Shown here: positions 19,744-32,543 of the stretch, piece by piece | Numbering within the stretch: position 1 is the stretch's first letter | Layout: each line of letters begins with the position of its first letter | Assembly (NCBI GenBank): GCA_963713655.1 | Contig: CAVQMT010000044.1 | Location: 6,686-70,685, forward strand | Reading direction: 5' to 3' | DNA from: an uncultured Acidobacteriota bacterium | Lineage (GTDB): Bacteria; Acidobacteriota; Vicinamibacteria; Vicinamibacterales; UBA2999 | Length of the DNA: 64,000 bases | Notes under the pieces: model-generated | Databases searched by the model: none | What the model was told of the DNA's origin: nothing | The model's input: the letters and a program-made list of their open reading frames with translations, nothing else | Program-made: the position numbers and the translations under genes

Positions 19744-19840
19744 ACAGGTCGCGTTTTTCCGTCGGCAGATCGGGCCAGCCCCGACGGCATCAGACGACGG
19801 CAGCCGTATACTCATAATCTTTCCAATGCGGAGGTATGAG

Positions 19841-21209
19841 ATGCGGTGCCGGGTGTCTGCCGTGGCGGGCGCGGTGCTGGCGGTGGGTATCCTCGCCGCC
19901 GTGCCGGTCGGCCATGCCGAACAAGCCGCGCAGGGCGCGGGCCCTGCCGGCCGGGCCCAAGGCGCCGGGCGCGGGCCGGTGCGGCCCGAGTGCGTCAATC
20001 CGGCGCTGCCGGCCGCGGAGTGCAACATCCCGCCGGGGATCAACTGGCCCGATCCGCCGCTCGGCGCGGGGCCGTTCCTGCTCGAAACCGCGGTGCCCGC
20101 AGCACCGCAACATCCGCGTCGTGGTGGTGGCGACCGGGCTGAACCAGCCCTGGTCCATGACCTGGCTGCCCGACGGCACCATGCTCGTCACCGAGCGTGC
20201 CGGGCGGCTGCGCGTGATCCGCAACGGCGTGCTGGATCCGAACCCGGTGGCGGGCGTGCCTGAGGTGCGCGCGCAGGGTCTGCAGGGCCTGATGGACGTG
20301 GTGCTGCACCCGCGCTTCGCGGAGAACCGCTACGTCTATCTGTCCTATCACAAGCCCTTCCCGGTTCCCGGCGCCACCACCCCGCAGGGCGCACCGCTCG
20401 TCGAGGGCGAGACCGTGCATCGCGCGCGGCACCTGGAACGGCACGGCGCTCACCGACGTGCGCGACATCTTTCGATCGGGTGCCACGCGGACCGAGTCGT
20501 CGCGCATCGGCTTCGCGCGCGACGGCATGCTGCACATGACCATCAGCGCGTCGGGCACCGGTCCCGACGTGATGCGCTCCGCGGATCCCAACGACTACGC
20601 CGGCAAGACCGTGCGCCTGCGCGACGACGGCACCATCCCGCCCGACAACCCGTTCGTGGGCAAGGCCGGCTACAAGCCGGGGATCTACACGCTCGGGTCA
20701 TCGCAACGGCCATTCGATGGCGCTCAACCCCGAGACGGGCGAGTTCTGGGTCACGGAGCAGGGGCCCAACGGCGGCGACGAGATCAACGTGCTGAAGCCG
20801 GGCGCGAACTACGGCTGGCCCTACGCCAGCCACGGGCGCAGCTACATGGGGCCGCGCATCTCGCCGACGCCGGGCCGCGACGGCACCGAGCAGCCGGTGG
20901 TCGTCTGGGTGCCGTCGATCGCCGCGGCCGGCGGCGACCTTTTACACCGGCGACAAGTTCCCGGGCTGGCAGCGCAACTTCTTCGTCGGCGGCCTGCGCG
21001 AGGGCGAGACGCCGCGCACCGGCCAGATGCAGCGCATCGAGTTCAACGAGCGCTGGGAGGAGATCCGGCGCGAGCCGCTGCTGCGCGAGCTGAAGCAGCG
21101 CATCCGCGACGTGCGGCAAGGACCCGATGGGCTGATCTACGCGCTGACGAGCGAGAACCCGGGTGCCGTGCTGCGCCTCGAGCCGGCAGAGGCACCGGCC
21201 GCGCGTTGA
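19841..21209 (+). CDS. PQQ-dependent sugar dehydrogenase (soluble aldose/sorbosone dehydrogenase family); at least 4 apparent frameshifts
   Basis: GGAGG RBS 6 nt upstream of ATG 19841 and a signal peptide. Contains GLNQPWSMTWLPDGTMLVTERAGRLRVI, GLMDVVLHP, GHRNGHSMALNPETGEFWVTEQGPNGGDEINVLKPGANYGWP and PDGLIYALT. Confidence 0.8.
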
Positions 21210-21212
21210 CCA

Positions 21213-21247
21213 CGACTAACGACTAACGACCAACGACCAACGAGCAC
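21213..21247. repeat. Tandem heptamers CGACTAA x2, CGACCAA x2, CGAGCAC between the sugar dehydrogenase stop and the pirin start
   Basis: Direct reading. Its reverse complement begins with the same TAGTTGGT motif as the array starting at 51116. Confidence 0.9.
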
Positions 21248-22706: not shown

Positions 22707-25051
22707 ATGGAACCAGCACTCTCGACTCCGCGCCCGGTGGCGCCTACCGTGTTCGAAGACGGCATCGGCGAGCGCCTGTCGGCGGTTGGCGGCGCCAACG
22801 AATCGCTGGAAGTCCTCAAGGTCAGCAACGAGCTGAGTGCGGTTTCGACCTTCGAGGGCGCCCTCCGCGAGCAGACCACGCGCCTGGCCTATTTCCGTCA
22901 CGAGGCGTTCGCCCGCGTCCGCGCCGTCGAGCGATTGGATTCACGCACCTCCACCGTGGTCGTCATCTCCGACCGTGTGCGCGGCGTCCGCCTGTCGGAG
23001 GTGCTGGCCACCGCCGAGCGGCAGGGCATTCCGCTCGAGCTGAACGCCGCGTTGTGCCTGATTCGCCAGCTGGTGTCGGCCGTGGCGGCCTTCCACGAGG
23101 CCGAACCCAACTCCTGCCACGGTGCGATCGCTCCCGAGCGGATCCTGATCACCCCCGAGGGCCGGCTGATCATGGTCGAGTACGTGCTGGGGCCCGCGCT
23201 CGAGGAGCTGCGCTTCTCGCAGGAGCGCTACTGGCGCGAGCTGGGGATCGCGGTGCCGCACACGTTCGGCCTGCCGCGCTTCGACCTGTTCGCCGACGTG
23301 ACGCAGGTGGGGGCGGTGGCGCTGGCGCTGGTGCTCGGGCGGCGTCTCGTGGTCGATGAGTACCCCGCGAAGATCAGCGAGGTCGTCGACTCGGCGATGA
23401 CGCGGCTCGAATCGGGCGAATCCGAGCCGATTCCGGTTCTGCTGCGGGCCTGGATCCGCAGCGCGCTGCAGCTCGAGCCGCGGCATTCGTTCGTCTCGGC
23501 GATTGGCGCGAAGAAGGACCTCGAGATCGCGCTGAGCCATGCCAGCCCAGACGCCGAGCGCGCGTCGCTGCGCGCGTTCCTGACCAGGTACGCAGCCGCG
23601 GTGCTGGCCGACCGCACGTCACGAGCCGCAGGCCGCGGCGCCGCCCGTGCCGATGCCGGTGGCGAGCAGCGCCCACGCCGGCGCCCTTCACGGTGTGCTA
23701 CCCCGGTTCCCGTACCGGCTCCCGTTGCGGCGCCCAGTGCCTGCCGCGGTGGCACCGCCAGCGCCTGCCCCGGCGCCTGCGGCCACGGTGCCCACGCCGA
23801 TCGCGATGGCCACGCCGTCGCGGTGCCCCGACGCCGGTGCCGGTGGCGCCAGTGCCGGTGACGCCGGTGCCGATGCGCGCCGGCGCCGGTACGCCCCCGT
23901 GTCCCAGCCGCCGTCACGCCGCCGCCGGCGGTTCCGCCGGCCCCGGCGTCCATCTCAACCTCGCCCGTCGCCGCACCCGCCGCGGCCGCCTCGGCCACGC
24001 CGTTCCGCGGCCGCGCCAGCGAGGCCGCCGGTGCAGGGCAGCGCGGCCCCGGCGCCGACGCCGTCGCGCGCCGCGACCTGTCTGGATGAACCCGTGGGCC
24101 GGCGCGGCCGCTGCCGCCCTGGTGATCGTGGCCACGCTCGGCTTTACGTTGACGCGTCCTGCCAGCGCCCCGCCGCCCGCGCAACCGGCAACGGCACGCT
24201 GACCGTCGGCACGAGCCCCGAGGGGGCCACGGTCCTCGTGGACGGCGTGAACCGCGGCCTGACGCCGCTGAACCTCAGCCTGTCTGCCGGCGAACACGTG
24301 CTCGAGCTGGTGACCAACGGCGAGCGCCGCCGCATCCCGGTCACGCTCACTTCGGGCGGCCAGGTCTCGCACTACTTCGACCTGCCGAAGACGTCGCCGA
24401 CCGGGACCGGCAGCCTGCAGATCCGCACCGACCCGCCCAAGGCGCGGGTCACGGTGGACGGGCAGCCGTTCGGTCGCACGCCCGACCGTGGTGACTGGCC
24501 TGACGCCGGGTCCGCACCAGGTGCTGCTCGAGACCGATACCGAGCGGGTCTCCGAGCAGGTGCTGATCGAGGCCGGCGGCACCGCGTCGCTGGTGGTGCC
24601 GATGAAGAGCCAGAGCCTCCTGCCCACGGGCGGCGGGTCCGGATGGATTGCCGTCTCGGCGCCAGCCGAAGTGCAGATCTACGAGAACCAGCGCCTGCTG
24701 GGCACCAGTCGCACGGATCGAATCATGTTGCCGGCGGGCCGGCACGACCTCGAGTTCGTGAACGAGTCGCTGGGTTATCGCGGGACGCGCTCGGTGGAAG
24801 TGGCCAACGGGCTGGTGGCCGCGGTGCGGCCCGAGTGGCCGCGCGGCACCGTGGCGCTGAACGCGCTGCCGTGGGCCGAAGTGTTCGTGAACGGCGAGCG
24901 GCTGGGCGAGACGCCCATCGGCGCGGCGTCCCTGCCGATCGGCGTCCACGAGATCGTGTTCCGCCATCCCGAGCTCGGCGAGCGCAGGGCCAGCGCCATC
25001 GTGACCAGTGGAGCCCCGGCGCGGCTCAGCGTGGATATGAGGGCGAAATGA
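22707..25051 (+). CDS. Pseudokinase-like domain, Pro/Ala-rich linker, TM segment and multiple PEGA domains; at least 3 apparent frameshifts
   Basis: Kinase-fold-like region with CHGAIAPERILI in place of HRDxKxxN and no DFG. The TM segment is WAGAAAAALVIVATLGFTL. PEGA-type repeats are present (GTLTVGTSPEGATVLVDGVNRGLTP, LQIRTDPPKARVTVDGQPFGRTP, NALPWAEVFVNGERLGETP). Confidence 0.65.
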
Positions 25052-25958
25052 GGAACCTGCTTCGCGCGACCGTTCTGGCCGTCGTGGCGCTGAGCGCCAC
25101 GACCGGCCGGGCGCAGGAGGCGAGCCTGGCGGCCGCCCGGGAGCTGTATGGGGCGGCTGAGTACGCCAGCGCCCTGAAGATGCTGACCACGCTGCCGGGC
25201 GCCGACACGTCGAAGGCCGACCTCCAGACCATCGACCTCTATCGTGCGCTGTGCCTGCTGGCGCTCGGCAACACCACCGAGGCCAACAAGGTGATCGAGT
25301 CGATGCTCATGCTCGACCCGCTCTACCGCCCCGACACCACCGACCTGCCGCCGCGCGTGCGCACTGCCTTCGCCGACGCCCGCAAGCGGATGCTGCCGGC
25401 GCTGGTCCAGCAGCGCTACCTGGTGGCGCGCGCCGCCTTCGAGGCCAAGAACTACGCGGCCGCGGCCGTCGGCTTCCAGGTCGTGCTGAGCGGCCTGTCG
25501 GACCCGGATCTCGGCATCGCCGAGCGCGCAGCCGCCGCTCTCCGATCTGAAGGTGCTGGCGTCGGGCTTCCACGATCTGGCTTCCAAGGCGAGCGCGCCC
25601 GTCGAGACGCCGGTCGAGGCGCCGCCGCCGGCGCCTCCCGTCCAGGAGCGGCCCGCCGGACCCGTCGATCTACGGCCCCGAGGATGTGAACGTGTCGCCG
25701 CCGCAGACAGTGCGGCAGATAGTGCCCGCGTTCCCGGGGCGCGTGCTGCTGACCGGGGCGGCGACGATGGACCTCATCATCAACGAGAGCGGGTCGGTGG
25801 ATTCGGCCACGATCGTGACCTCGCTGAACCCGCAGTACGATCGGATGGCGTTGAACGCGGCGCGGAGCTGGCAGTACAAGCCGGCGACGCTGAACGGCAC
25901 GCCGGTGAAGTACCGCAAGCGGCTCCAGTTGACGGTGGTTCCGGGCCAGACCCGGTAG
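25048..25958 (+). CDS. Signal peptide, TPR-like helical region, Pro-rich spacer and a TonB C-terminal-like domain; 2 apparent frameshifts
   Basis: The start ATG overlaps the upstream stop (ATGA). The Pro-rich spacer is PVETPVEAPPPAPPVQERP. The C-terminus PPQTVRQIVPAFPG...VDSATIV...ALNAARSWQYKPATLNGTPV is TonB_C-like. Confidence 0.6.
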
Positions 25959-25966
25959 AAGGGGGC

Positions 25967-26009
25967 GCCAGGCCCCAGGCTCCTAGGCTTTGGGCTTTGG
26001 GCCTGGGCT
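25967..26009. repeat. Degenerate heptamer array CCAGGCC CCAGGCT CCTAGGCT TTGGGCT TTGGGCC TGGGCTC at a convergent gene junction
   Basis: Direct reading. The right part encodes the SPFH C-terminal tail SSPGPKPKA on the minus strand. Confidence 0.75.
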
Positions 26010-26928
26010 CGACGCGTCGAACACGCGCATCGCCGTGGCAATCATCCCCGCGACGTCGGTGACGGTCGCCGGCACGATCACCGCATTCGCCGTGCGCGCC
26101 AGGTTGCCGAACTGCGTGACGTACTGTTCGGCGACCCGCAGCTGCACCGCGTCCCGCCCGCCTTCCGACCGAATCGCGTCGGCCACCTCGCGAATGCCTT
26201 GCGCCGTCGCCGTCGCCACGGCCCGGATCGCCGACGCCTGGCCTTCGGCCTCGTTGATCTGCTGCTGGCGGCTCGCTTCCGACTGCTTGATCACCTGCTG
26301 CTTTTCGCCCTCGGCCGAGTTGATGGCGGCATCGCGCTGGCCCTCGGACGTGCAGAATCAGCGCGCGCTTCTCGCGCTCGGCGCGCATCTGCTTTTCCAT
26401 CGCCGCCAGGATGTCCTGCGGCGGCTCGATGTTCTTGATCTCGTAGCGCAGCACCTTGACGCCCCAGGATTCCGACGCCTTGTCCAGCTCGCCCACCACC
26501 TCGGCGTTGATGCTGGCGCGTTCCTCGAACGTGCGGTCGAGGTCGATCTTGCCGACCTCGCTGCGCAGCGTGGTCTGGGCCAGCTGGGTGATGGCGAACA
26601 GGTAGTTCGAGATGCCGTAGGACGCGCGCTCCGGGTTCAGCACCTTCAGGTAGAGGATGCCGTCCACGCCCACCTGCACGTTGTCGCGGGTGATGCAGAC
26701 CTGCGCCGGGATGTCGAGCGCCTGCTCCTTGAGCGAATGCCGGTAGCGGATGACGTCCACGAACGGCACCAGGATGTGGAAGCCGGCGTTGAGCGTGGCG
26801 TGGTAGCGGCCCAGGCGCTCGACGACGAACGCGCTCTGCTGCGGCACCACGACCGCCGTCTTGAACAGGACGAACAGGATCAGCAGGGCGACGAGAATCA
26901 GGACGACGACGGTGGCTTCCACGGTCAC
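25983..26928 (-). CDS. SPFH/band-7 (stomatin/paraslipin-like) protein
   Basis: N-terminal TM segment (VVLILVALLILFVLF). Contains VVERLGRYHATLNAGFHILVPFVD, TRDNVQVGVDGILYLKV and LRYEIKNIEPP. One frame hop occurs near 26340. Confidence 0.85.
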
Positions 26929-26929
26929 C

Positions 26930-27361
26930 TCACTCCGGTCGGATGTCGAGTTCCAGGCCGTTGACGGCGACGACGCGGCAGCGTTCGCGCGCGCCGACGG
27001 CACGCTCGCTCACGTTGCGCGCGTTCCACAACGCGCCGCGCACTTCGGCCTTGCCGCGCCCGCCCGGCTCGAGCGCGATCGCGGGCAGCGCCGCGTCGCC
27101 GACGAGCGAATCCACGCTGGCCGGTGTCGCGCGCCTGCAGCCGGGCCAGGAGCGGCTGCCGGAAGAGCCGCAGCGCCACCAGGGCGACGATGGGGAAGAC
27201 CAGCCACTGCGCCCACGCCGGCTTCCAGCAGCCCGGCCACGCTGCAGCAGGCCGACCACCACCGCGCCGACGCCGAAGAAGATGATGAAGAAGCCGCCCG
27301 GCGTCGCCAGCTCGATGGCCGCGAGCACCAGGCCCAGGGCGATCCACATCCAGCCGGTCAT
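26930..27361 (-). CDS. NfeD-family membrane protein (SPFH partner); 2 apparent frameshifts
   Basis: MTGWMWIALGLVLAAIELATPGGFFIIFFGVGAVVVG, followed by a C-terminal beta domain (GRGKAEVRGALWNARN...VVAVNGLELDIRPE). It abuts the SPFH start. Confidence 0.75.
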   Translation of the reverse strand: MTGWMWIALGLVLAAIELATPGGFFIIFFGVGAVVVGLLQRGRAAGSRRGRSGWSSPSSPWWRCGSSGSRSWPGCRRATPASVDSLVGDAALPAIALEPGGRGKAEVRGALWNARNVSERAVGARERCRVVAVNGLELDIRPE

Positions 27362-27372
27362 GGCGGTTCCGG

Positions 27373-28192
27373 CTACGCGCCGGCGCGCGTCAGGCGTAAG
27401 GGCGCCGAGCCGGGCGCCGTCAGCTCGATCTCGGTGTCGCCGGCGCGGCCGGTGTAGACACGATCGCCGGCCTTGAGCGTGATGTCGCGCCCGTTCAGCT
27501 GCCCGGTGACCGGAACCGGCTTGCCGCCGACCGTCAGCGTGCCCGAGACCATCTGGAAGTCCTGCGTCAGGGTCAGCTCGCCGTCCGATGCGCGCCACCG
27601 GCCGCCCACCTTGGCCGGGACGATCCACAGGATCGCTTCGCACCATGCGGTGCAGTCGCCGCCAATCGTCTCGCTCTTGTCGGGATTCCACCCTTCGAAG
27701 CGGAACGTGTTCGACACGATCCGCGAGCCCGGCGCGAGGGCGAAGAACTTCGGCGCGCAGCTGCAGCATGTTGCTGGGCAGCAGGAAGATGGCCATCACC
27801 GTCGCCTTGGAGATGTCGGCCGCGAACATGTCGCCCTGCACGAACTGGGCGCGGTCGGCGACGCCGGCGCTCTTGGCCAGGCGTTCGGACAGGCCGACCA
27901 TGTCGGGGTTGAACTCGACCCCGAGCGCGCGGGCGCCGCGCTTGGCGGCCGCGATGACGTTGCGGCCGTCGCCCGACCCCAGGTCGATCACGAAGTCGTT
28001 GGGCCCGACCTGGGCCATGTCCATCATCTTCTCGACCAGCGCCGGCGGCGTGGGCACCCACACCACGTCCTTGCCGGGTTGGCCGACCTCGGGTTCGAAG
28101 GGTTTCGCGCCCTGTTGGGCGTGCGACGGGGCGGGTGAAACCAGCAGGGCGATGAGCGCCAGGGCCCATGCGACGGTGTAAATGCTTCGCAT
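27373..28192 (-). CDS. Signal-peptide-bearing class I SAM-dependent methyltransferase with an extra C-terminal beta-rich domain
   Basis: It has a signal peptide (VAWALALIALLVSPAPSHAQQ). VIDLGSGDGR is motif I. GVEFNPDMV and GDMF are also present. The C-terminal segment is WCEAILWIVPAKVGGRWR...TLTVGGKPVPVTGQLNG. One frame hop occurs near 27735. Confidence 0.7.
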
Positions 28193-28236
28193 GGGCCGTA
28201 TGGTAGCGCGGGATGCCCGCGCGCGGCGTTCCGAAC

Positions 28237-30087
28237 CTACCGCACGGCGTCGGACCGCGGCGGCGGTGCGGCGCTCAGCGGCGCCAGCTTGGAGGCGGCG
28301 TCCTGTGGCGAACCCGCGCCCGACTCCTGCTGCAGCATCGACACCTGGGTGGGCGCGCCGTAGGTGACTTCAACCGTCTGGCGGCGCTCGCCGAAGAGCG
28401 GATGCCGCACCAGCACTTCCCGCGTGCCCAGCGGCACCGAGATGTCGCCGAGCGGCAGCGTGCCCACGTGCTCACCCTCGACCCACACTTCGCCGCCGGG
28501 GGCACCGGCGATACGCAACTGCCCGGGAGGCAGCGTAGCCGTGTGCGTGGTCACCTGGCCGCCGGCCACGTCCAGGGTGACCTCGCCGCGGTAGTTCAAG
28601 CGCTTGTTGACCAGCTCGACGCGGCGGCGTCCGGCCGGCACCACGATCTGGCCGTCGTCGGTCGAGCCGACGCGCACGCCGTCGATGATCAGGTCGAGCG
28701 GCACGCGCGAATAGACGGTCAGGAGGCCCGACGAGGCCTTGGTCGGCGTCCACGACGGGCGTGCCGGCGGCCTGGGCGTCCCGGGCCGCGTCGCCGCGCC
28801 CGGCGCGCCGGGTGCGCGGCGCCGGGGTGGCCGGCTTCTCCGGTTCGGTGGCAGCAACTTCGGGAACGGTCTCGGGCGCCTTGGCCGGCGTGGCCGCGCG
28901 GTCCCACCACAGATAGCCGCCGGTCCCGATGATCACCACCGCGGCGGCGGCGGCAGCGGCCGCGATCCAGACCTTCCACGCCGGCGCGTCGTCGGAATCG
29001 TCCGTCGTCTCGGTGGTGCTGAAGCGTTCGCCGAAGACCGGACGCGGCGCGGGGGCCTCGACGCTTGGCGCGGCGGCGGGTTCGGCGATCGGGGCCGGGG
29101 CCTCCGGTGCCGGCTGGCGCCGCGCGGGCCGTTCCCGGTGCTCGGTGCGCAGCTTGGCCACTTCCTCCTCGAGCCGCTGGCTGTTTTCCGTGCGTGAACG
29201 CTCGCTCTCTGCCTTGAACCGGGTTTCGTTCTCCGAGCGGATGCGGGTCGCCTCGACTTCGAAGGCCTTGGCCGCCGCACGCTGGGCCGCGGCCTGGACG
29301 TCGCGCGCCGCTTGTTCGCGCGCCGCCTCGGCTTGCTGCTGCGCCTGCGTCTGCTGCCGCCTCGCCGCCTCGGCCTGCTCCCGCAGGCTGGCCAGCTCCA
29401 CCTGCAGCTTCGATTCGGTTTCGGTGCGCACGCGCGCAAGCTCGGCTTCGAGCGCGCGGGTCGCGGCGGCTTCGGCGGCGAGACGCGCTTCCTGGACGGC
29501 CGCCGCGCGCGTGACTTCGGCCTCGGCGCGGGCGCGGGCCAGGTTGGCCTCGCGGTCCCGATCGGCATCGACGCGCGACTGTCCCAGGCGTTCGGACAGC
29601 TGCCGCTCCATCTGCTCGCGCGACCGTTCCAGCTCGCGCGCCAGCTGCTGCTCGGCCTCGCGTGCGCGCGCGCGCCAGCTCGCTGGCCATCGACTCGCGC
29701 GCCGCGGCTTCGGCCTGGGCGCGGGCTTCGGCCACGGCTCGCTCGCGCTCTGCCGCGGCCGCCGCTTCATGGCTTGGCCAACTCGGCCTGCCGCTGGGCG
29801 GCCGCTTCGGCCTTGATCCGTTCGACCTCCACCGCCAGCTTCGCCTTGGCGTGCGCCTCGACGAGCGCGAGCTCGGCGGCGTGCACCTCCGGATCGATGC
29901 CGTCCTGGGCGGCTGCCGGGCCCGCCTCGGCCGCTGTCGCGGCGGCTTGACGGATGTCGGGTTGCTGCTCGCCGTTCACTTCGATGGCCATCGGGTCGAC
30001 ACCCATCGTGTTGATCAGGGAGTCGACCTCGGCGGCCATCTGCGTGTCGTCGGCGGTGTGGGAACGGCGGGGGTGGCGTGTGCTCAT
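28237..30087 (-). CDS. Long Ala/Glu/Arg-rich coiled-coil, TM segment and C-terminal PEGA domains; about 3 apparent frameshifts
   Basis: ATG 30087. It has about 250 aa of AEAEV/ARLAAEAAA/ELARVRTE heptad-like sequence. The TM segment is WKVWIAAAAAAAAVVIIGTGGYLWW. The PEGA-like segments are LLTVYSRVPLDLIIDGVRVGSTDDG and GGEVWVEGEHVGTLP. Frame hops occur near 29765, 29665 and 28740. Confidence 0.6.
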
Positions 30088-30428: not shown

Positions 30429-31241
30429 GTGCGGCAACGGAAGTACGGGTTCTGGATCCTGGCGCTGGCCCTCACCTGGTCGGCGGCGGCCCCCGGCGCG
30501 CTCCTGGCCCAACAGGCCCAGGACATCCCGGCGCAGCCCCCGAGCGCGCTGGCGCCCGACAACCTGGCGAAGCCGCGCCCGGCGGCGCCGTTCAACCTGA
30601 CCGGGAACTGGTTCATCGACAACACGCCGGCGGTGCAAGGGTGGCTGTTCGGGCCCGCCGCCATCCCCAAGCTGCTGCCCGATGCCCAGAAGCACCGCGA
30701 TGCCTACGTCAAGGCGACAGCGGAGGGGAAGGTCTACCGCGACGACATCGGCCAGTGCTGGCCGGCCGGCGTGCCGATCATCATGACCCGGGTGTGGCCG
30801 ATCGCGATGATCCAGCTGCCGACCGCCATCTACATGGTCAGCGGCTTCATGAACAGCCTGCGCACCGTCTTCATGGACGGCCGCTCCCACACCGACCCTG
30901 ATATCGTCGTGCGGACGTTCAACGGCGAGTCGATCGGGCGCTGGGAGGGCGACACGCTGGTGATCGAGACCAAGAACTTCATCGACGACGAGCACCACTG
31001 GGTGGACCAGGGGGTCCGCGCCAGCGGCGAGCTGAAGATCGTCGAGCGGGTCCGGATGATCAACAACGGCCGGACCCTCGAGATCCAGATGACGCTCACG
31101 GATCCGAAGAACTGGGAAGGCGAGTACAAGGGCACCCGCCGGTGGAACCGCGTGGACGACATCGACATCGCGGAAGTGGAGTGCCTGCCAGACCTCAACG
31201 AGCATCTGCAGAGCACGTCGTCGAAAGTGCACGTCCGCTAG
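30429..31241 (+). CDS. Secreted uncharacterised protein, paralog A1
   Basis: Intact 270-aa ORF with a signal peptide (FWILALALTWSAAAPGALLAQQ). Contains LTGNWFID, GQCWPAG, VFMDGRSH and GRWEGDTLVIETKNF. About two thirds of residues are identical to the 31671-32543 product by eye. Confidence 0.7.
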   Translation: MRQRKYGFWILALALTWSAAAPGALLAQQAQDIPAQPPSALAPDNLAKPRPAAPFNLTGNWFIDNTPAVQGWLFGPAAIPKLLPDAQKHRDAYVKATAEGKVYRDDIGQCWPAGVPIIMTRVWPIAMIQLPTAIYMVSGFMNSLRTVFMDGRSHTDPDIVVRTFNGESIGRWEGDTLVIETKNFIDDEHHWVDQGVRASGELKIVERVRMINNGRTLEIQMTLTDPKNWEGEYKGTRRWNRVDDIDIAEVECLPDLNEHLQSTSSKVHVR

Positions 31242-31267
31242 GACCGCACACCAAGGAGACTGGACTG

Positions 31268-31669
31268 ATGAGAAGGACTGTTCTGTTGCCGTGCGTGCTG
31301 GCCGCGATGGTGGCCGTGCCGGTGTTCGCGCATCACTCGCCGGCGGCGTTCGACCGCACCAAGGAGGTCACGCTGGTCGGCATCGTCAAGGAGTTCCGCT
31401 GGCAGAACCCGCACACCTGGATCGAGATGAACGTGCCCGATCCCGTCACGAAGAAGGACGTGCTGTGGGGTGTGGAGCTGACCTCTCCGACCTACCTGGT
31501 GCGCGCCGGCTGGAAATCCAACCTGATCAAGCCCGGCGACAAGGTCACCGTGGTGGTCAATCCGGTTCGCAGCGGCGAGCCCTCCGGTATCTTCCGCTCG
31601 CTGACGCTGGCCGATGGCCGCACGTTCCTCGAACGGCCGGCGCGTCTCGGCACGGCCGAGTCCAAGTAA
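31268..31669 (+). CDS. Small secreted protein resembling the DUF6152 type (mature N-terminus His-His-Ser)
   Basis: Intact 133-aa ORF. The signal peptide LAAMVAVPVFA is followed by HHSPAAFD (31331-31339). Contains FRWQNPHTWIEM and KPGDKVTVVVNPVRSGEPSG. Confidence 0.7.
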   Translation: MRRTVLLPCVLAAMVAVPVFAHHSPAAFDRTKEVTLVGIVKEFRWQNPHTWIEMNVPDPVTKKDVLWGVELTSPTYLVRAGWKSNLIKPGDKVTVVVNPVRSGEPSGIFRSLTLADGRTFLERPARLGTAESK

Positions 31670-31670
31670 C

Positions 31671-32543
31671 GTGCGTGTGCCCCTGAAACGCCTGGGCCTT
31701 CACGCGCTCGCGCTGACGGCGATCGTCGCTCTGCCGCTGCTGCTACTGCCAGCGTCCTGCAGCGCGCCGCCGCTCGAAGCTCCCGCGCCGGCTGCGACAG
31801 GCGCCGGCGAGGTTTCGCCCGCCGGGGCCGAGCCCGTGAGCGCGCTGGCTCCCGCCAATCTGGCCAAGGCACGTCCGGCCGCGCCCTTCAGCGTGACCGG
31901 CAACTGGTTCATCGACGTCAGCCAGAACCCCGACGCGTGGCGGTTCGGGCCGCCGTATCCGGCCCTGAAACCGGGCGCGCAGAAACACGCCGACGCCTCC
32001 AAGAAGGCCACGGCCGAGGGCAAGGTCTATCGCGACGACATCGGGCAGTGCTGGCCGGCCGGCCTGCCGCTCATCATGACCCGCTACTGGCCGATGGCGA
32101 TGATCCAGCTGCCGACGGCGATCTACATGGTCAGCGGCTTCATGAACAGCCTCCGCATCGTCTATCTGGACGGCCGCAGCCACACCCCCGAGGACATCGT
32201 CGTGCGCACGTTCAACGGCGAGTCGATCGGCCGTTGGGAAGGCGACACGCTGGTGGTGGACACCCGCCATTTCCGCGCCGACCACCACTGGATGGACCAG
32301 GGCGGCGTGTCGATTCCGGCGGGCGAGCAGCTGCGCATCGTCGAGCGCATCAAGTCGGTGAGCGACGGCAAGCAGCTCGAGATCGAGTACACGATGACCG
32401 ACCCGGAAAACTGGGACGGCGAATGGAAGAGCACCAAGCGCTTCAACCGGGTGGACGACGTGGACATCCAGGAAGTGTCGTGCCTGCCCGACTTGAACGA
32501 GCACCTGCAGAGCACGACGTCGAAGACGCAGGTGCTGCAGTAG
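31671..32543 (+). CDS. Secreted (possible lipoprotein) uncharacterised protein, paralog A2
   Basis: GTG 31671 lies 1 nt after the upstream stop. LLLLPASC is lipobox-like. It shares the A1 motifs VTGNWFID, GQCWPAG, VYLDGRSH and GRWEGDTLVVDTRHF. Confidence 0.7.
   Translation: MRVPLKRLGLHALALTAIVALPLLLLPASCSAPPLEAPAPAATGAGEVSPAGAEPVSALAPANLAKARPAAPFSVTGNWFIDVSQNPDAWRFGPPYPALKPGAQKHADASKKATAEGKVYRDDIGQCWPAGLPLIMTRYWPMAMIQLPTAIYMVSGFMNSLRIVYLDGRSHTPEDIVVRTFNGESIGRWEGDTLVVDTRHFRADHHWMDQGGVSIPAGEQLRIVERIKSVSDGKQLEIEYTMTDPENWDGEWKSTKRFNRVDDVDIQEVSCLPDLNEHLQSTTSKTQVLQ

What the first reader, a model, noticed from the sequence alone, without database searches (positions are those of the whole stretch)
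22707..30087. Envelope module: pseudokinase-PEGA plus TonB-C pair facing a coiled-coil-PEGA / exported methyltransferase / NfeD / SPFH operon
Two tightly packed, convergent transcription units meet at 25958-25983.
- Plus strand: a protein with a degenerate kinase domain (CHGAIAPERILI, no DFG), a Pro/Ala linker, a TM segment and several PEGA domains. It is translationally coupled (ATGA) to a TPR-like protein with a Pro-rich spacer and a TonB C-terminal-like domain.
- Minus strand: a coiled-coil protein of about 600 aa with a TM segment and PEGA domains, then a signal-peptide methyltransferase (11-nt gap), NfeD and SPFH (abutting).
SPFH/NfeD pairs are known membrane-scaffold modules. I do not know of a described link between them and PEGA proteins, a pseudokinase and a TonB-like anchor.
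Basis: partly seen in the sequence, partly recalled or inferred. Interest (0 to 1): 0.55.

Follow-up and report, generated by a model that had tools for sequence, protein, structure and literature searches.

The report
Pseudokinase-PEGA/TonB-C pair beside ordinary stomatin operon

Summary
The six genes exist at the stated coordinates. All are broken by single-base indels, which occur throughout this Vicinamibacterales assembly.

Domain calls:
- Supported: PEGA, TonB_C, Band_7/Band_7_C (a QmcA homologue), NfeD and a class I methyltransferase.
- The N-terminal domain has no Pfam hit. A family profile and a confident AlphaFold model both match PknA/PknB kinase domains. The beta3 Lys, HRD Asp, catalytic Asn and DFG Asp are replaced in all aligned family members, so it is a true pseudokinase.
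- "TPR-like" is compatible with the data but not significant.

Gene order gives the key result:
- The pseudokinase-PEGA gene is followed by the TonB_C gene in 77 of 85 related loci, usually with a 4-nt overlap. In one genome the pair is tandemly duplicated as a unit.
- The SPFH/NfeD/methyltransferase/coiled-coil-PEGA unit is adjacent in only 5 of the 61 loci with at least 5 kb downstream, plus one metagenome contig. All six are close relatives.
- Of 37 metagenome loci with a methyltransferase homologue, 36 lack SPFH/NfeD.

So the "envelope module" is a lineage-specific juxtaposition. What is new is the conserved two-gene pair: an uncharacterised transmembrane pseudokinase family (about 950 clusters at 50% identity) with a secreted TonB-like partner. 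Its function is inferred only.

The parts
22707..25051 (+). Gene for a bitopic membrane protein of about 780 aa: a cytoplasmic Hanks-type pseudokinase domain, a Pro/Ala-rich linker, one TM helix and four PEGA-type beta-sandwich domains. Frameshifts lie near 23630, 24183 and 24484.
   Evidence: Intact orthologues are 710-811 aa.
22707..23620 (+). Pseudokinase domain of about 305 aa.
   Evidence: There is no Pfam hit. phmmer finds PknE at 1.3e-3. The family profile matches the PknB kinase domain over its full length at 3.8e-6. The AF2 model has pLDDT 91.6, and Foldseek matches PknA/PknB at E 1e-11 with TM 0.6-0.67. HRD is replaced by (A/C/S)HG, the catalytic Asn by an invariant Arg, DFG by VE(Y/H), and the beta3 Lys is not conserved.
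24095..24151 (+). Predicted transmembrane helix, WAGAAAAALVIVATLGFTL.
   Evidence: Read from the frame-1 translation. The same position is hydrophobic in intact orthologues.
24190..25048 (+). Periplasmic array of four PEGA-type domains. Two reach Pfam significance and two are divergent.
   Evidence: Pfam PEGA at 1.1e-28 with two stretches. There are two or three stretches in intact orthologues.
25048..25958 (+). Gene for a secreted protein of about 305 aa: a Sec-type signal peptide, a helical (possibly TPR-like) domain, a Pro-rich spacer and a TonB_C domain. Its start overlaps the upstream stop (ATGA). Frameshifts lie near 25523 and 25640-25667.
   Evidence: Pfam TonB_C at 3.4e-8. TIGR01352 at 6.4e-8. 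The family profile matches TonB C-terminal domain structures at 1.2e-4. Signal-peptide-like N-termini occur in all 39 orthologues. The junction was verified.
25959..25982 (.). 24-nt spacer between the convergent stop codons. It holds a short GC hairpin (GGGGC-GCCAG-GCCCC) and no T tract.
   Evidence: Sequence read. No terminator consensus was found here.
25983..26928 (-). Stomatin-type SPFH protein, a QmcA homologue of about 314 aa. There is one frameshift near 26352.
   Evidence: Band_7 at 1.4e-33 and Band_7_C at 2.8e-25. It matches the E. coli QmcA structure 8z5g at 2.7e-56 over its full length.
26930..27361 (-). Short NfeD protein (YbbJ-like, about 143 aa): membrane helices plus a C-terminal OB-fold partner-binding domain. 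There are two frameshifts near 27216-27241.
   Evidence: Pfam NfeD at 1.8e-7 and NfeD_membrane at 6e-3. The intact L001 orthologue is 143 aa.
27373..28192 (-). Methyltransferase of 272 aa: a signal peptide, an aKMT-like class I SAM-methyltransferase core and a beta-rich C-terminal domain of about 80 aa. There is one frameshift near 27755.
   Evidence: Methyltransf_25 and Methyltransf_31. NF041081 protein-lysine MT at 2.1e-25, below its cut-off. PDB 5bxy at 7.5e-45, and aKMT 5fa8 at 8.2e-38 and 5jwj at 9.6e-37. More than 8000 homologues.
28237..30087 (-). Lineage-restricted protein of about 605 aa: a long cytoplasmic Ala/Glu/Arg-rich helical (coiled-coil-like) region, one TM helix and two PEGA-type periplasmic domains. 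There are at least three frameshifts.
   Evidence: Pfam PEGA at 2.2e-6. Only 21 homologues were found, nearly all at 54% identity or more. Its PEGA pair is paralogous to PEGA domains 3-4 of the pseudokinase protein. The L001 orthologue is 629 aa.

Best explanation
The interval holds two functionally separate units that are neighbours only in one Vicinamibacterales sub-lineage.

Unit 1 (shown). This is a conserved, translationally coupled two-gene operon.
- The first product is a bitopic inner-membrane protein. Its cytoplasmic domain has a Hanks-kinase fold but has lost the catalytic residues. Its periplasmic part is an array of four PEGA beta-sandwich domains.
- The second product is a secreted protein: a helical domain, a Pro-rich spacer and a TonB C-terminal domain. 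It has a signal peptide where TonB has a membrane anchor.

Unit 1 (inferred). The two proteins form a complex in the periplasm, with the helical domain docking on the PEGA array. In effect this is a 'split TonB': its inner-membrane anchor is a pseudokinase, and its TonB_C head reaches an outer-membrane or peptidoglycan ligand across the Pro-rich spacer. Occupancy would be relayed through the single TM helix to the pseudokinase. The pseudokinase would act as a non-catalytic scaffold or allosteric switch for cytoplasmic partners.

Unit 2 (shown). This is an ordinary QmcA/YbbJ-type SPFH-NfeD membrane-scaffold pair. In this sub-lineage it is preceded by a very common signal-peptide aKMT-like methyltransferase and by a lineage-specific coiled-coil-TM-PEGA protein.

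Unit 2 (inferred). The coiled-coil protein arose by partial duplication of the neighbouring pseudokinase-PEGA gene. It may compete for, or share, the same periplasmic partner.
For: Pair conservation:
- tblastn of the window proteins against 85 related loci finds the TonB_C gene directly after the pseudokinase-PEGA gene in 77 of them. Most of the eight without a hit are contigs that end at or just after the pseudokinase-PEGA gene, or belong to the sister clade that carries a Peptidase_M23 gene instead.
- The spacing is -4 nt in 30 of 67 loci and at most 50 nt in 64 of 67. The single outlier, L008, is a tandem duplication of the whole pair.
- The pair is still present at 44% pseudokinase identity (L168).
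- A protein with a TM helix and four PEGA domains but no pseudokinase is also followed by a TonB_C gene (L167).

Pseudokinase:
- The profile matches PknB at 3.8e-6.
- The model has pLDDT 91.6, and Foldseek matches PknA/PknB at 1e-11.
- The catalytic residues are replaced in all 26 aligned family members.

Secreted partner:
- Signal-peptide-like N-termini are present in all 39 orthologues.
- TonB_C is supported.

Independence of the two units:
- SPFH is adjacent in only 5 of the 61 loci with at least 5 kb downstream.
- Of 37 methyltransferase loci, 36 lack SPFH/NfeD.
- The methyltransferase and the DUF6152 block are syntenic without SPFH in L011, L019 and L038.

Other points:
- The SPFH protein is a QmcA homologue.
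- The coiled-coil-PEGA protein is a paralogue of the pseudokinase-PEGA protein and is lineage-restricted.
Against: - No physical interaction was tested.
- The helical domain is not demonstrably TPR.
- No ligand for the TonB_C domain is known.
- No active kinase, FHA protein or phosphatase gene is conserved next to the pair. The ORF clustering found no third widely conserved neighbour, but that clustering was crude.
- In the six loci of the sub-lineage, all six genes do stay together, and gaps of 11 nt and 1 nt suggest co-transcription of MT-NfeD-SPFH. A lineage-specific functional link therefore cannot be excluded.
- All window genes carry frameshifts, so the stitched sequences are approximate at the junctions.
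Confidence: 0.6

Rival explanations
1. One reading: all six genes form one envelope module. In it, PEGA proteins, the pseudokinase and the TonB-like protein work together with the SPFH/NfeD scaffold.
For: - The full arrangement recurs in L001, L006, L008, L069 and L087, and in L007 up to the end of that contig.
- Both PEGA membrane proteins share a homologous C-terminal ectodomain.
- The spacing is tight: gaps of 24, 1, 11 and 44 nt.
Against: - All six of these loci are close relatives, with pseudokinase identity of 59-87%.
- The other 56 loci with at least 5 kb downstream lack SPFH/NfeD.
- Of 37 methyltransferase loci, 36 lack SPFH/NfeD.
- The coiled-coil-PEGA protein has only 21 homologues.
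- The flanking genes (Pirin, the DUF6152 block) are also conserved in the same relatives. The shared order is therefore what recent common ancestry alone would give.
Confidence: 0.1
2. The pair works on peptidoglycan rather than on outer-membrane TonB-box proteins. The PEGA pseudokinase would be an inner-membrane regulator or anchor for a periplasmic cell-wall factor, by analogy with FtsEX-EnvC.
For: In the sister clade (40-42% pseudokinase identity), the gene directly downstream is a 419-aa Peptidase_M23 protein (5.7e-32) instead of the TonB_C protein. This is seen in L003, L004, L005 and L169. From established knowledge, not tested here: TonB C-terminal domains have been reported to bind peptidoglycan.
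Against: - No peptidoglycan-binding motif was tested.
- The TonB_C domain keeps the typical W-x-Y/F-x-P-A signature of TonB-box-binding domains. This favours neither ligand.
- The sister-clade proteins have only one PEGA domain, so the partner interface may differ.
Confidence: 0.25
3. The N-terminal domain is an atypical but active kinase. The protein would then be a conventional receptor Ser/Thr kinase with a PEGA sensor.
For: - The fold is a complete kinase fold.
- A Glu is nearly invariant at the DFG-Asp position and could bind a metal.
- Some eukaryotic 'pseudokinases' retain activity (general knowledge, discussed in bioRxiv 10.1101/2025.01.12.632604).
Against: Four catalytic positions are replaced at once, and consistently, in all 26 aligned sequences: beta3 Lys to Leu or variable, HRD Asp to Gly, catalytic Asn to Arg, and DFG Asp to Glu. 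The Pfam Pkinase model gives no hit for the window protein and only sub-threshold hits for orthologues.
Confidence: 0.1
4. The locus is decaying: the frameshifts are real and the genes are pseudogenes.
For: There are about 13 frameshifts in 7.4 kb. The public record of the same contig carries the same truncated 370-aa product (P0001).
Against: - Frameshifts affect every gene in the region. They include the 95%-conserved QmcA homologue and, outside the interval, the sugar dehydrogenase at 19836-21226.
- GC3 stays at 0.85-1.0 in the shifted frames.
- Orthologues in short-read assemblies are intact.
- This pattern fits errors in a long-read assembly.
Confidence: 0.05

Closest known systems
Membrane-anchored bacterial pseudokinases, such as the M. 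tuberculosis MviN (Rv3910) pseudokinase domain and B. subtilis YukC/EssB of the type VIIb secretion system (PMC9600267)
   Same: A Hanks-kinase fold without catalytic residues is joined through one TM helix to an extracytoplasmic domain. The presumed role is as a scaffold or allosteric element rather than an enzyme.
   Different: - The ectodomain here is a four-PEGA array.
- The family has no Pfam Pkinase hit.
- It has an obligate secreted TonB_C partner.
- No sequence relationship to MviN or YukC was found; the best PDB matches are the active kinases PknA, PknB and PknE.
- The 2025 atlas of bacterial Ser/Thr kinases lists seven pseudokinase families and does not mention PEGA, TonB or Acidobacteria in its main text. 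Whether this family falls in one of them was not tested.
TonB (energy transducer of the ExbB-ExbD-TonB system)
   Same: A Pro-rich spacer is followed by a TonB_C domain with the usual signature.
   Different: - The N-terminus is a cleavable-looking signal peptide plus a helical domain of about 140 aa, not a TM anchor.
- No exbB or exbD is among the called genes within 10 kb in the close relative L001.
- It is always encoded after a PEGA membrane protein.
E. coli QmcA (YbbK)-YbbJ and Pyrococcus PH1511-PH1510 stomatin/NfeD operons (PMC2636767, PMC4208085)
   Same: The SPFH protein aligns over its full length to QmcA at 2.7e-56. A short NfeD with the C-terminal partner-binding domain is encoded immediately upstream.
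   Different: Nothing essential. The extra upstream genes (methyltransferase, coiled-coil-PEGA) are specific to this sub-lineage.
Archaeal aKMT-type protein-lysine methyltransferase (PDB 5fa8, 5jwj; NCBIfam NF041081)
   Same: The catalytic core, residues 41-190, matches at 8.2e-38 and 9.6e-37 with the profile and at 2.1e-25 with NCBIfam.
   Different: It has a Sec-type signal peptide and an extra C-terminal domain of about 80 aa. Its score is below the NCBIfam cut-off (89.5 against 200). The substrate and cellular compartment are unknown.
Receptor Ser/Thr kinases with extracytoplasmic repeat sensors, such as PknB-PASTA
   Same: The overall architecture is a cytoplasmic kinase fold, one TM helix and repeated small extracytoplasmic domains. 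The best structural matches are PknA and PknB.
   Different: It is catalytically dead, and it carries PEGA rather than PASTA repeats.

Membership tests
Hanks-type protein kinase (Pfam Pkinase PF00069) | Bilobal protein-kinase fold. | tested here: met
   The AF2 model has pLDDT 91.6. Foldseek top hits are PknA and PknB at E 1e-11 with TM 0.6-0.67. The profile aligns to PknB residues 34-287.
Hanks-type protein kinase (Pfam Pkinase PF00069) | A score above the Pfam gathering threshold. | tested here: not met
   There is no hit even at E<=10. Orthologues P0199 and P0203 reach only 20 and 16.7 bits against a cut-off of 31.7.
Hanks-type protein kinase (Pfam Pkinase PF00069) | The catalytic residues: beta3 (VAIK) Lys, HRD Asp, catalytic-loop Asn and DFG Asp. 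| tested here: not met
   In the alignment to PknB, Lys is replaced by Leu or a variable residue, HRD by (A/C/S)HG, Asn by an invariant Arg145, and DFG by VE(Y/H). This holds across all 26 sequences. The domain is therefore a pseudokinase.
PEGA domain (PF08308) | A score above the Pfam gathering threshold. | tested here: met
   The pseudokinase protein scores 99.3 bits against a cut-off of 20.8. The coiled-coil protein scores 27.9 bits against 20.8.
TonB energy transducer | A C-terminal TonB_C domain. | tested here: met
   PF03544 at 34.3 bits against 24.6. TIGR01352 at 32.8 bits against 27.1. The profile matches TonB C-terminal domain structures.
TonB energy transducer | An N-terminal transmembrane anchor that couples to ExbB/ExbD. 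| tested here: not met
   All 39 orthologues begin with a signal-peptide-like segment that ends in A-x-A/Q-[DE], followed by a soluble helical domain. No signal-peptide predictor was available, so cleavage is inferred from the sequence.
TonB energy transducer | Genomic association with exbB/exbD. | tested here: not met
   No ExbB or ExbD family appears among the genes called within 10 kb in L001, L003, L167 or L168. A location elsewhere in the genome was not tested.
TPR repeat protein | A significant match to TPR profiles or structures. | tested here: inconclusive
   There is no Pfam TPR hit and no PDB sequence hit for the N-terminal domain. The single-sequence model is all helical hairpins (pLDDT 64.8). 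Its best Foldseek matches are TPR proteins, but at E 0.6-1. The L167 partner has a sub-threshold TPR_16 hit at 2.4e-3.
SPFH/stomatin-NfeD operon (QmcA-YbbJ type) | An SPFH (Band_7) domain protein of stomatin/QmcA type. | tested here: met
   Band_7 at 116.9 bits and Band_7_C at 88.5 bits. QmcA structure 8z5g at 2.7e-56, matching residues 8-301.
SPFH/stomatin-NfeD operon (QmcA-YbbJ type) | An NfeD gene with the C-terminal partner-binding domain immediately upstream on the same strand. | tested here: met
   PF01957 at 31.7 bits against 29.1. The NfeD stop is at 26930 and the SPFH start at 26928.
aKMT-type protein-lysine methyltransferase (NF041081) | A score above the NCBIfam equivalog cut-off. 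| tested here: not met
   It scores 89.5 bits against 200. The core is clearly homologous, with PDB hits from 9.6e-37 to 7.5e-45, but orthology is not established.
   SPFH/NfeD is adjacent in 5 of the 61 loci with enough flank and in one further metagenome contig. All six have at least 59% pseudokinase identity to the window. Of 37 methyltransferase loci, 36 lack SPFH/NfeD.
Conserved pseudokinase-PEGA / TonB_C two-gene operon | Adjacency, same strand and tight spacing across the lineage. | tested here: met
   It is present in 77 of 85 loci. Spacing is at most 50 nt in 64 of 67 loci and a 4-nt overlap in 30. The pair is duplicated as a unit in L008.

The most novel reading that the evidence does not exclude
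The conserved pair is a previously undescribed trans-envelope device that works without ExbBD. A secreted 'anchor-less TonB' docks through its helical domain on the PEGA array of an inner-membrane pseudokinase. Engagement of an outer-membrane or cell-wall ligand by the TonB_C head would then be reported to the cytoplasm through a catalytically dead kinase scaffold. The sister clade uses the same pseudokinase-PEGA chassis with an M23 peptidase partner. This would make the family a general 'pseudokinase-controlled periplasmic effector' system. It is widespread in soil Acidobacteriota, with about 950 clusters at 50% identity.
Probability: 0.2. Interest if true: 0.65.

Novelty: new variant of a known kind. 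Interest (0 to 1): 0.38.

Why it matters
Vicinamibacterales are among the most abundant soil bacteria, are hard to culture, and their envelope biology is essentially unknown. The analysis removes an attractive but unsupported link between SPFH/NfeD and PEGA/pseudokinase/TonB. It leaves a well-defined target: a large, unannotated family of transmembrane pseudokinases whose N-terminal domain has no Pfam model and which has an obligate TonB-like secreted partner. If the pair forms a complex, it would be a new way of using both a TonB C-terminal domain and a kinase fold in bacterial envelope signalling. It can be tested with two recombinant proteins.

Tried and rejected
- Pfam on the kinase-like domain at E<=10 gave nothing. 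I switched to PDB sequence and profile searches and to structure prediction.
- ORF clustering of the 85 loci, meant to find a third conserved neighbour of the pair, was crude. Antisense ORFs pass a GC3 filter in DNA of 70% GC. It showed no cluster present in more than about 15 loci other than the pair itself.
A single-sequence model of the N-terminal domain was of low confidence, and its Foldseek hits were insignificant.
- The sigma-70 promoter and intrinsic terminator scans found nothing useful in this high-GC DNA.
- I first read L008 as having a 3.5-kb insertion that splits the pair. It is a tandem duplication of the whole pair.
- I considered that the coiled-coil-PEGA gene might be generally linked to the methyltransferase or to SPFH. 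I rejected this because it has only 21 homologues, and the distant ones (P0193, P0194) are TM-PEGA proteins followed by TonB_C genes instead.
- A literature search for 'PEGA domain' (18 papers), and a search within a bacterial kinome atlas, found no description of this architecture.

Full report
**What is in the sequence**

The window has about 70% GC. In the interval, the frame with the highest GC3 changes every few hundred bases, so every gene is split over two to four reading frames. I compared the window with L001, a contig whose pseudokinase domain is 87% identical. Most of the breaks are 1-nt insertions in the window, and they are not in homopolymers. They affect even the SPFH gene, whose protein is 95% identical to that of L001. 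They also affect genes outside the interval, such as the sugar dehydrogenase at 19836-21226. Orthologues in short-read assemblies are intact. I therefore treat the indels as assembly errors and stitched the proteins across frames.

- On the plus strand, 22707-25051 is followed by 25048-25958, with an ATGA start/stop overlap.
- On the minus strand the order is 30087-28237, a 44-nt gap, 28192-27373, an 11-nt gap, 27361-26930, a 1-nt gap, and 26928-25983.
- The convergent stop codons are 24 nt apart.

**Domain calls**

Pfam supports the following on the stitched proteins:
- PEGA in the first plus-strand protein, at 1.1e-28.
- TonB_C in the second, at 34.3 bits against a cut-off of 24.6.
- Band_7 and Band_7_C in the SPFH protein.
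- The NfeD C-terminal domain, at 31.7 bits against 29.1.
- A class I methyltransferase fold.
- One PEGA domain in the roughly 605-aa Ala/Glu/Arg-rich protein.

NCBIfam adds tonB_Cterm, and an archaeal protein-lysine methyltransferase model for the methyltransferase at 2.1e-25, below its cut-off. The SPFH protein aligns over its full length to E. coli QmcA at 2.7e-56. NfeD-SPFH is therefore the well-known YbbJ-QmcA (stomatin operon partner) pair (PMC2636767, PMC4208085).

**The pseudokinase**

The 305-aa N-terminal domain has no Pfam hit even at E<=10. Four other lines of evidence show what it is:
- phmmer against PDB gives only kinases: PknE at 1.3e-3 and PknA at 2.3e-3.
- A profile of 26 family members aligns end to end with the PknB kinase domain at 3.8e-6.
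- An AlphaFold2 model built from that alignment is confident, with pLDDT 91.6 and pTM 0.90.
- Foldseek places the model with M. tuberculosis PknA and PknB at E about 1e-11 and TM 0.6-0.67.

In the alignment, the HRD motif reads (A/C/S)-H-G. The catalytic-loop Asn is an invariant Arg. DFG reads V-E-(Y/H). The beta3 Lys position is Leu or variable. This holds in all 26 sequences. The loss of catalytic residues is thus ancestral to the family and is not an artefact of this assembly.

A full HMMER scan of 1.84 billion cluster representatives finds about 950 clusters at E<=1e-30. Typical lengths are 620-810 aa. Intact members show a TM helix, PEGA repeats and at best sub-threshold Pkinase scores.

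**The partner protein**

All 39 full-length orthologues recovered start with a signal-peptide-like segment. This is followed by a conserved helical domain of about 140 aa, a Pro-rich spacer and the TonB_C domain with its usual W-x-Y-x-P-A signature. The family profile matches only TonB C-terminal domain structures.

'TPR-like' remains unproven:
- There is no Pfam or PDB sequence hit for the N-terminal domain.
- A single-sequence model of low confidence consists of helical hairpins.
- The nearest folds to that model are TPR proteins, at insignificant E-values.
- A more distant partner has a sub-threshold TPR_16 hit.

The protein is not a TonB in the functional sense. It lacks the membrane anchor, and no exbBD genes lie nearby.

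**Gene-order test**

A scan of one genome per GTDB species returned 80 loci. All are Acidobacteriota, mostly labelled Vicinamibacterales. Five more loci came from look-ups of exact proteins. I ran tblastn with the stitched window proteins.

Results for the plus-strand pair:
- The TonB_C gene follows the pseudokinase-PEGA gene in 77 of 85 loci.
- Most of the eight without a hit are contigs that end at or just after the pseudokinase-PEGA gene, or belong to the sister clade that carries a Peptidase_M23 gene instead.
- The estimated spacing is a 4-nt overlap in 30 of 67 loci and at most 50 nt in 64 of 67. My choice of start codon biases these estimates towards small gaps.
- The single apparent exception, L008, is a tandem duplication of the entire pair.
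- The pair persists at 44% pseudokinase identity (L168).
- A protein with a TM helix and four PEGA domains but no pseudokinase is also followed by a TonB_C gene (L167).

Results for the minus-strand unit:
- SPFH/NfeD lies next to the pair only in L001, L006, L007, L008 and L069. That is 5 of the 61 loci with at least 5 kb downstream, and their pseudokinase identity to the window is 59-87%.
- One metagenome contig of the same clade, L087, also has it.
- A metagenome scan seeded with the methyltransferase gave 37 loci of at least 4 kb. Of these, 36 have no SPFH/NfeD.
- In L011, L019 and L038, the methyltransferase and the downstream block (DUF6152 with flanking paralogues) are syntenic with the window, but SPFH/NfeD is absent. 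In L019, an HTH_25 membrane protein occupies the position of the coiled-coil-PEGA gene.
- The coiled-coil-PEGA protein has only 21 detectable homologues, almost all at 54% identity or more.

The six-gene arrangement is therefore a recent, lineage-specific juxtaposition inside a larger syntenic block. It is not a conserved module.

**A real link between the units**

The two periplasmic domains of the coiled-coil protein are 36% identical (E 1e-26) to PEGA domains 3-4 of the pseudokinase protein, including the F/V-R-H-P-x-x-G-E-R-R motif. The simplest reading is a local partial duplication of the ectodomain, fused to a new cytoplasmic helical region. This explains why two PEGA proteins lie near each other without any need for SPFH involvement. 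It also leaves open that both bind the same periplasmic partner.

**How it probably works**

The following is shown:
- The operon is conserved and translationally coupled.
- The topology follows from the sequence: a cytoplasmic pseudokinase, one TM helix, periplasmic PEGA domains and a secreted partner.
- Catalytic residues have been lost.
- The pair duplicates as a unit.

The following is inferred. The partner's helical domain binds the PEGA array, which replaces TonB's membrane anchor. The Pro-rich spacer and the TonB_C head then reach an outer-membrane or peptidoglycan ligand. The pseudokinase acts as a scaffold or switch on the cytoplasmic side.

The sister clade (40-42% pseudokinase identity) has a Peptidase_M23 gene in the partner position. 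This suggests that the family in general controls or anchors periplasmic factors that act on the envelope. It also keeps a peptidoglycan-directed role as a serious alternative.

Nothing here tests the interaction, the ligand or the cytoplasmic output.

**Comparison with what is known**

The closest analogues in function are membrane pseudokinases such as MviN of M. tuberculosis (from my own knowledge) and YukC/EssB (PMC9600267), and receptor kinases such as PknB-PASTA. The closest relatives by sequence and structure are active Hanks kinases.

A 2025 atlas of bacterial Ser/Thr kinases defines seven pseudokinase families from sequences homologous to Pfam Pkinase. Its main text does not mention PEGA, TonB or Acidobacteria. 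Eighteen papers mention 'PEGA domain', and none of their titles or abstracts points to this architecture; I did not read them. I therefore rate the pair as a new variant of a known kind, the bacterial transmembrane pseudokinase. I rate the SPFH/NfeD part as already known.

**Verdict**

- Interest is moderate. The striking association is not real beyond one sub-lineage. What remains is a solid, widespread and uncharacterised two-gene system in a major soil lineage.

Noticed in passing
L008:9875-16727: The whole pseudokinase-PEGA plus TonB_C pair is tandemly duplicated in this relative (59% identity). The second pseudokinase-PEGA copy carries frameshifts. The SPFH/NfeD/MT unit follows the second copy.
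   Followed up: partly
window 27373-28192 (minus strand): The methyltransferase has an aKMT-type protein-lysine methyltransferase core (PDB 5bxy, 5fa8 and 5jwj, from 9.6e-37 to 7.5e-45). It also has a Sec-type signal peptide and an extra C-terminal domain of about 80 aa. The family is very large (more than 8000 hits). A SAM-dependent enzyme that appears to be exported is odd, and its substrate is unknown.
   Followed up: partly
P0119 and P0157 (homologues of the methyltransferase); L019:17433-18452: Some methyltransferase homologues are fused to an HTH_25 (RodZ-like) domain. In L019, a separate HTH_25 membrane protein is encoded directly upstream of the methyltransferase. This suggests a recurrent association between HTH_25 and the methyltransferase that has nothing to do with SPFH.
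   Followed up: no
L003:10001-12794, L004, L005, L169:5496-8163: A sister clade of the pseudokinase-PEGA family (40-42% identity, only one PEGA domain) is always followed by a 419-aa Peptidase_M23 protein. After that come DUF1015, a 2-hydroxyacid dehydrogenase and an aminotransferase.
   Followed up: partly
window, whole length (examples 19836-21226 and 22707-30087): Frameshifts interrupt essentially every gene. Against L001 they are mostly single-base insertions outside homopolymers, about one per 500-600 bp. The public protein P0001 (370 aa, 100% identical) shows that the same truncation is in the deposited contig.
   Followed up: partly
window 30429-32543: A triplet of genes lies just past the coiled-coil-PEGA gene: a secreted 270-aa protein, DUF6152, and a paralogue of the first. 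The block is syntenic with the methyltransferase in L011, L019, L038 and L069.
   Followed up: no
L006 (CAWBMV010000012.1): The closest genome hit (80% identity) is labelled 'Candidatus Rokubacteria'. All other relatives are labelled Vicinamibacterales or Acidobacteriota. This is probably a mislabelled bin.
   Followed up: no
L019:14497-15411: In relatives that lack SPFH/NfeD, the space after the TonB_C gene holds other predicted surface proteins. These include a Pro/Tyr-rich protein ending in a PEGA-like domain and a 393-aa protein that looks Ig/cadherin-like. I judged both from the sequence only.
   Followed up: no
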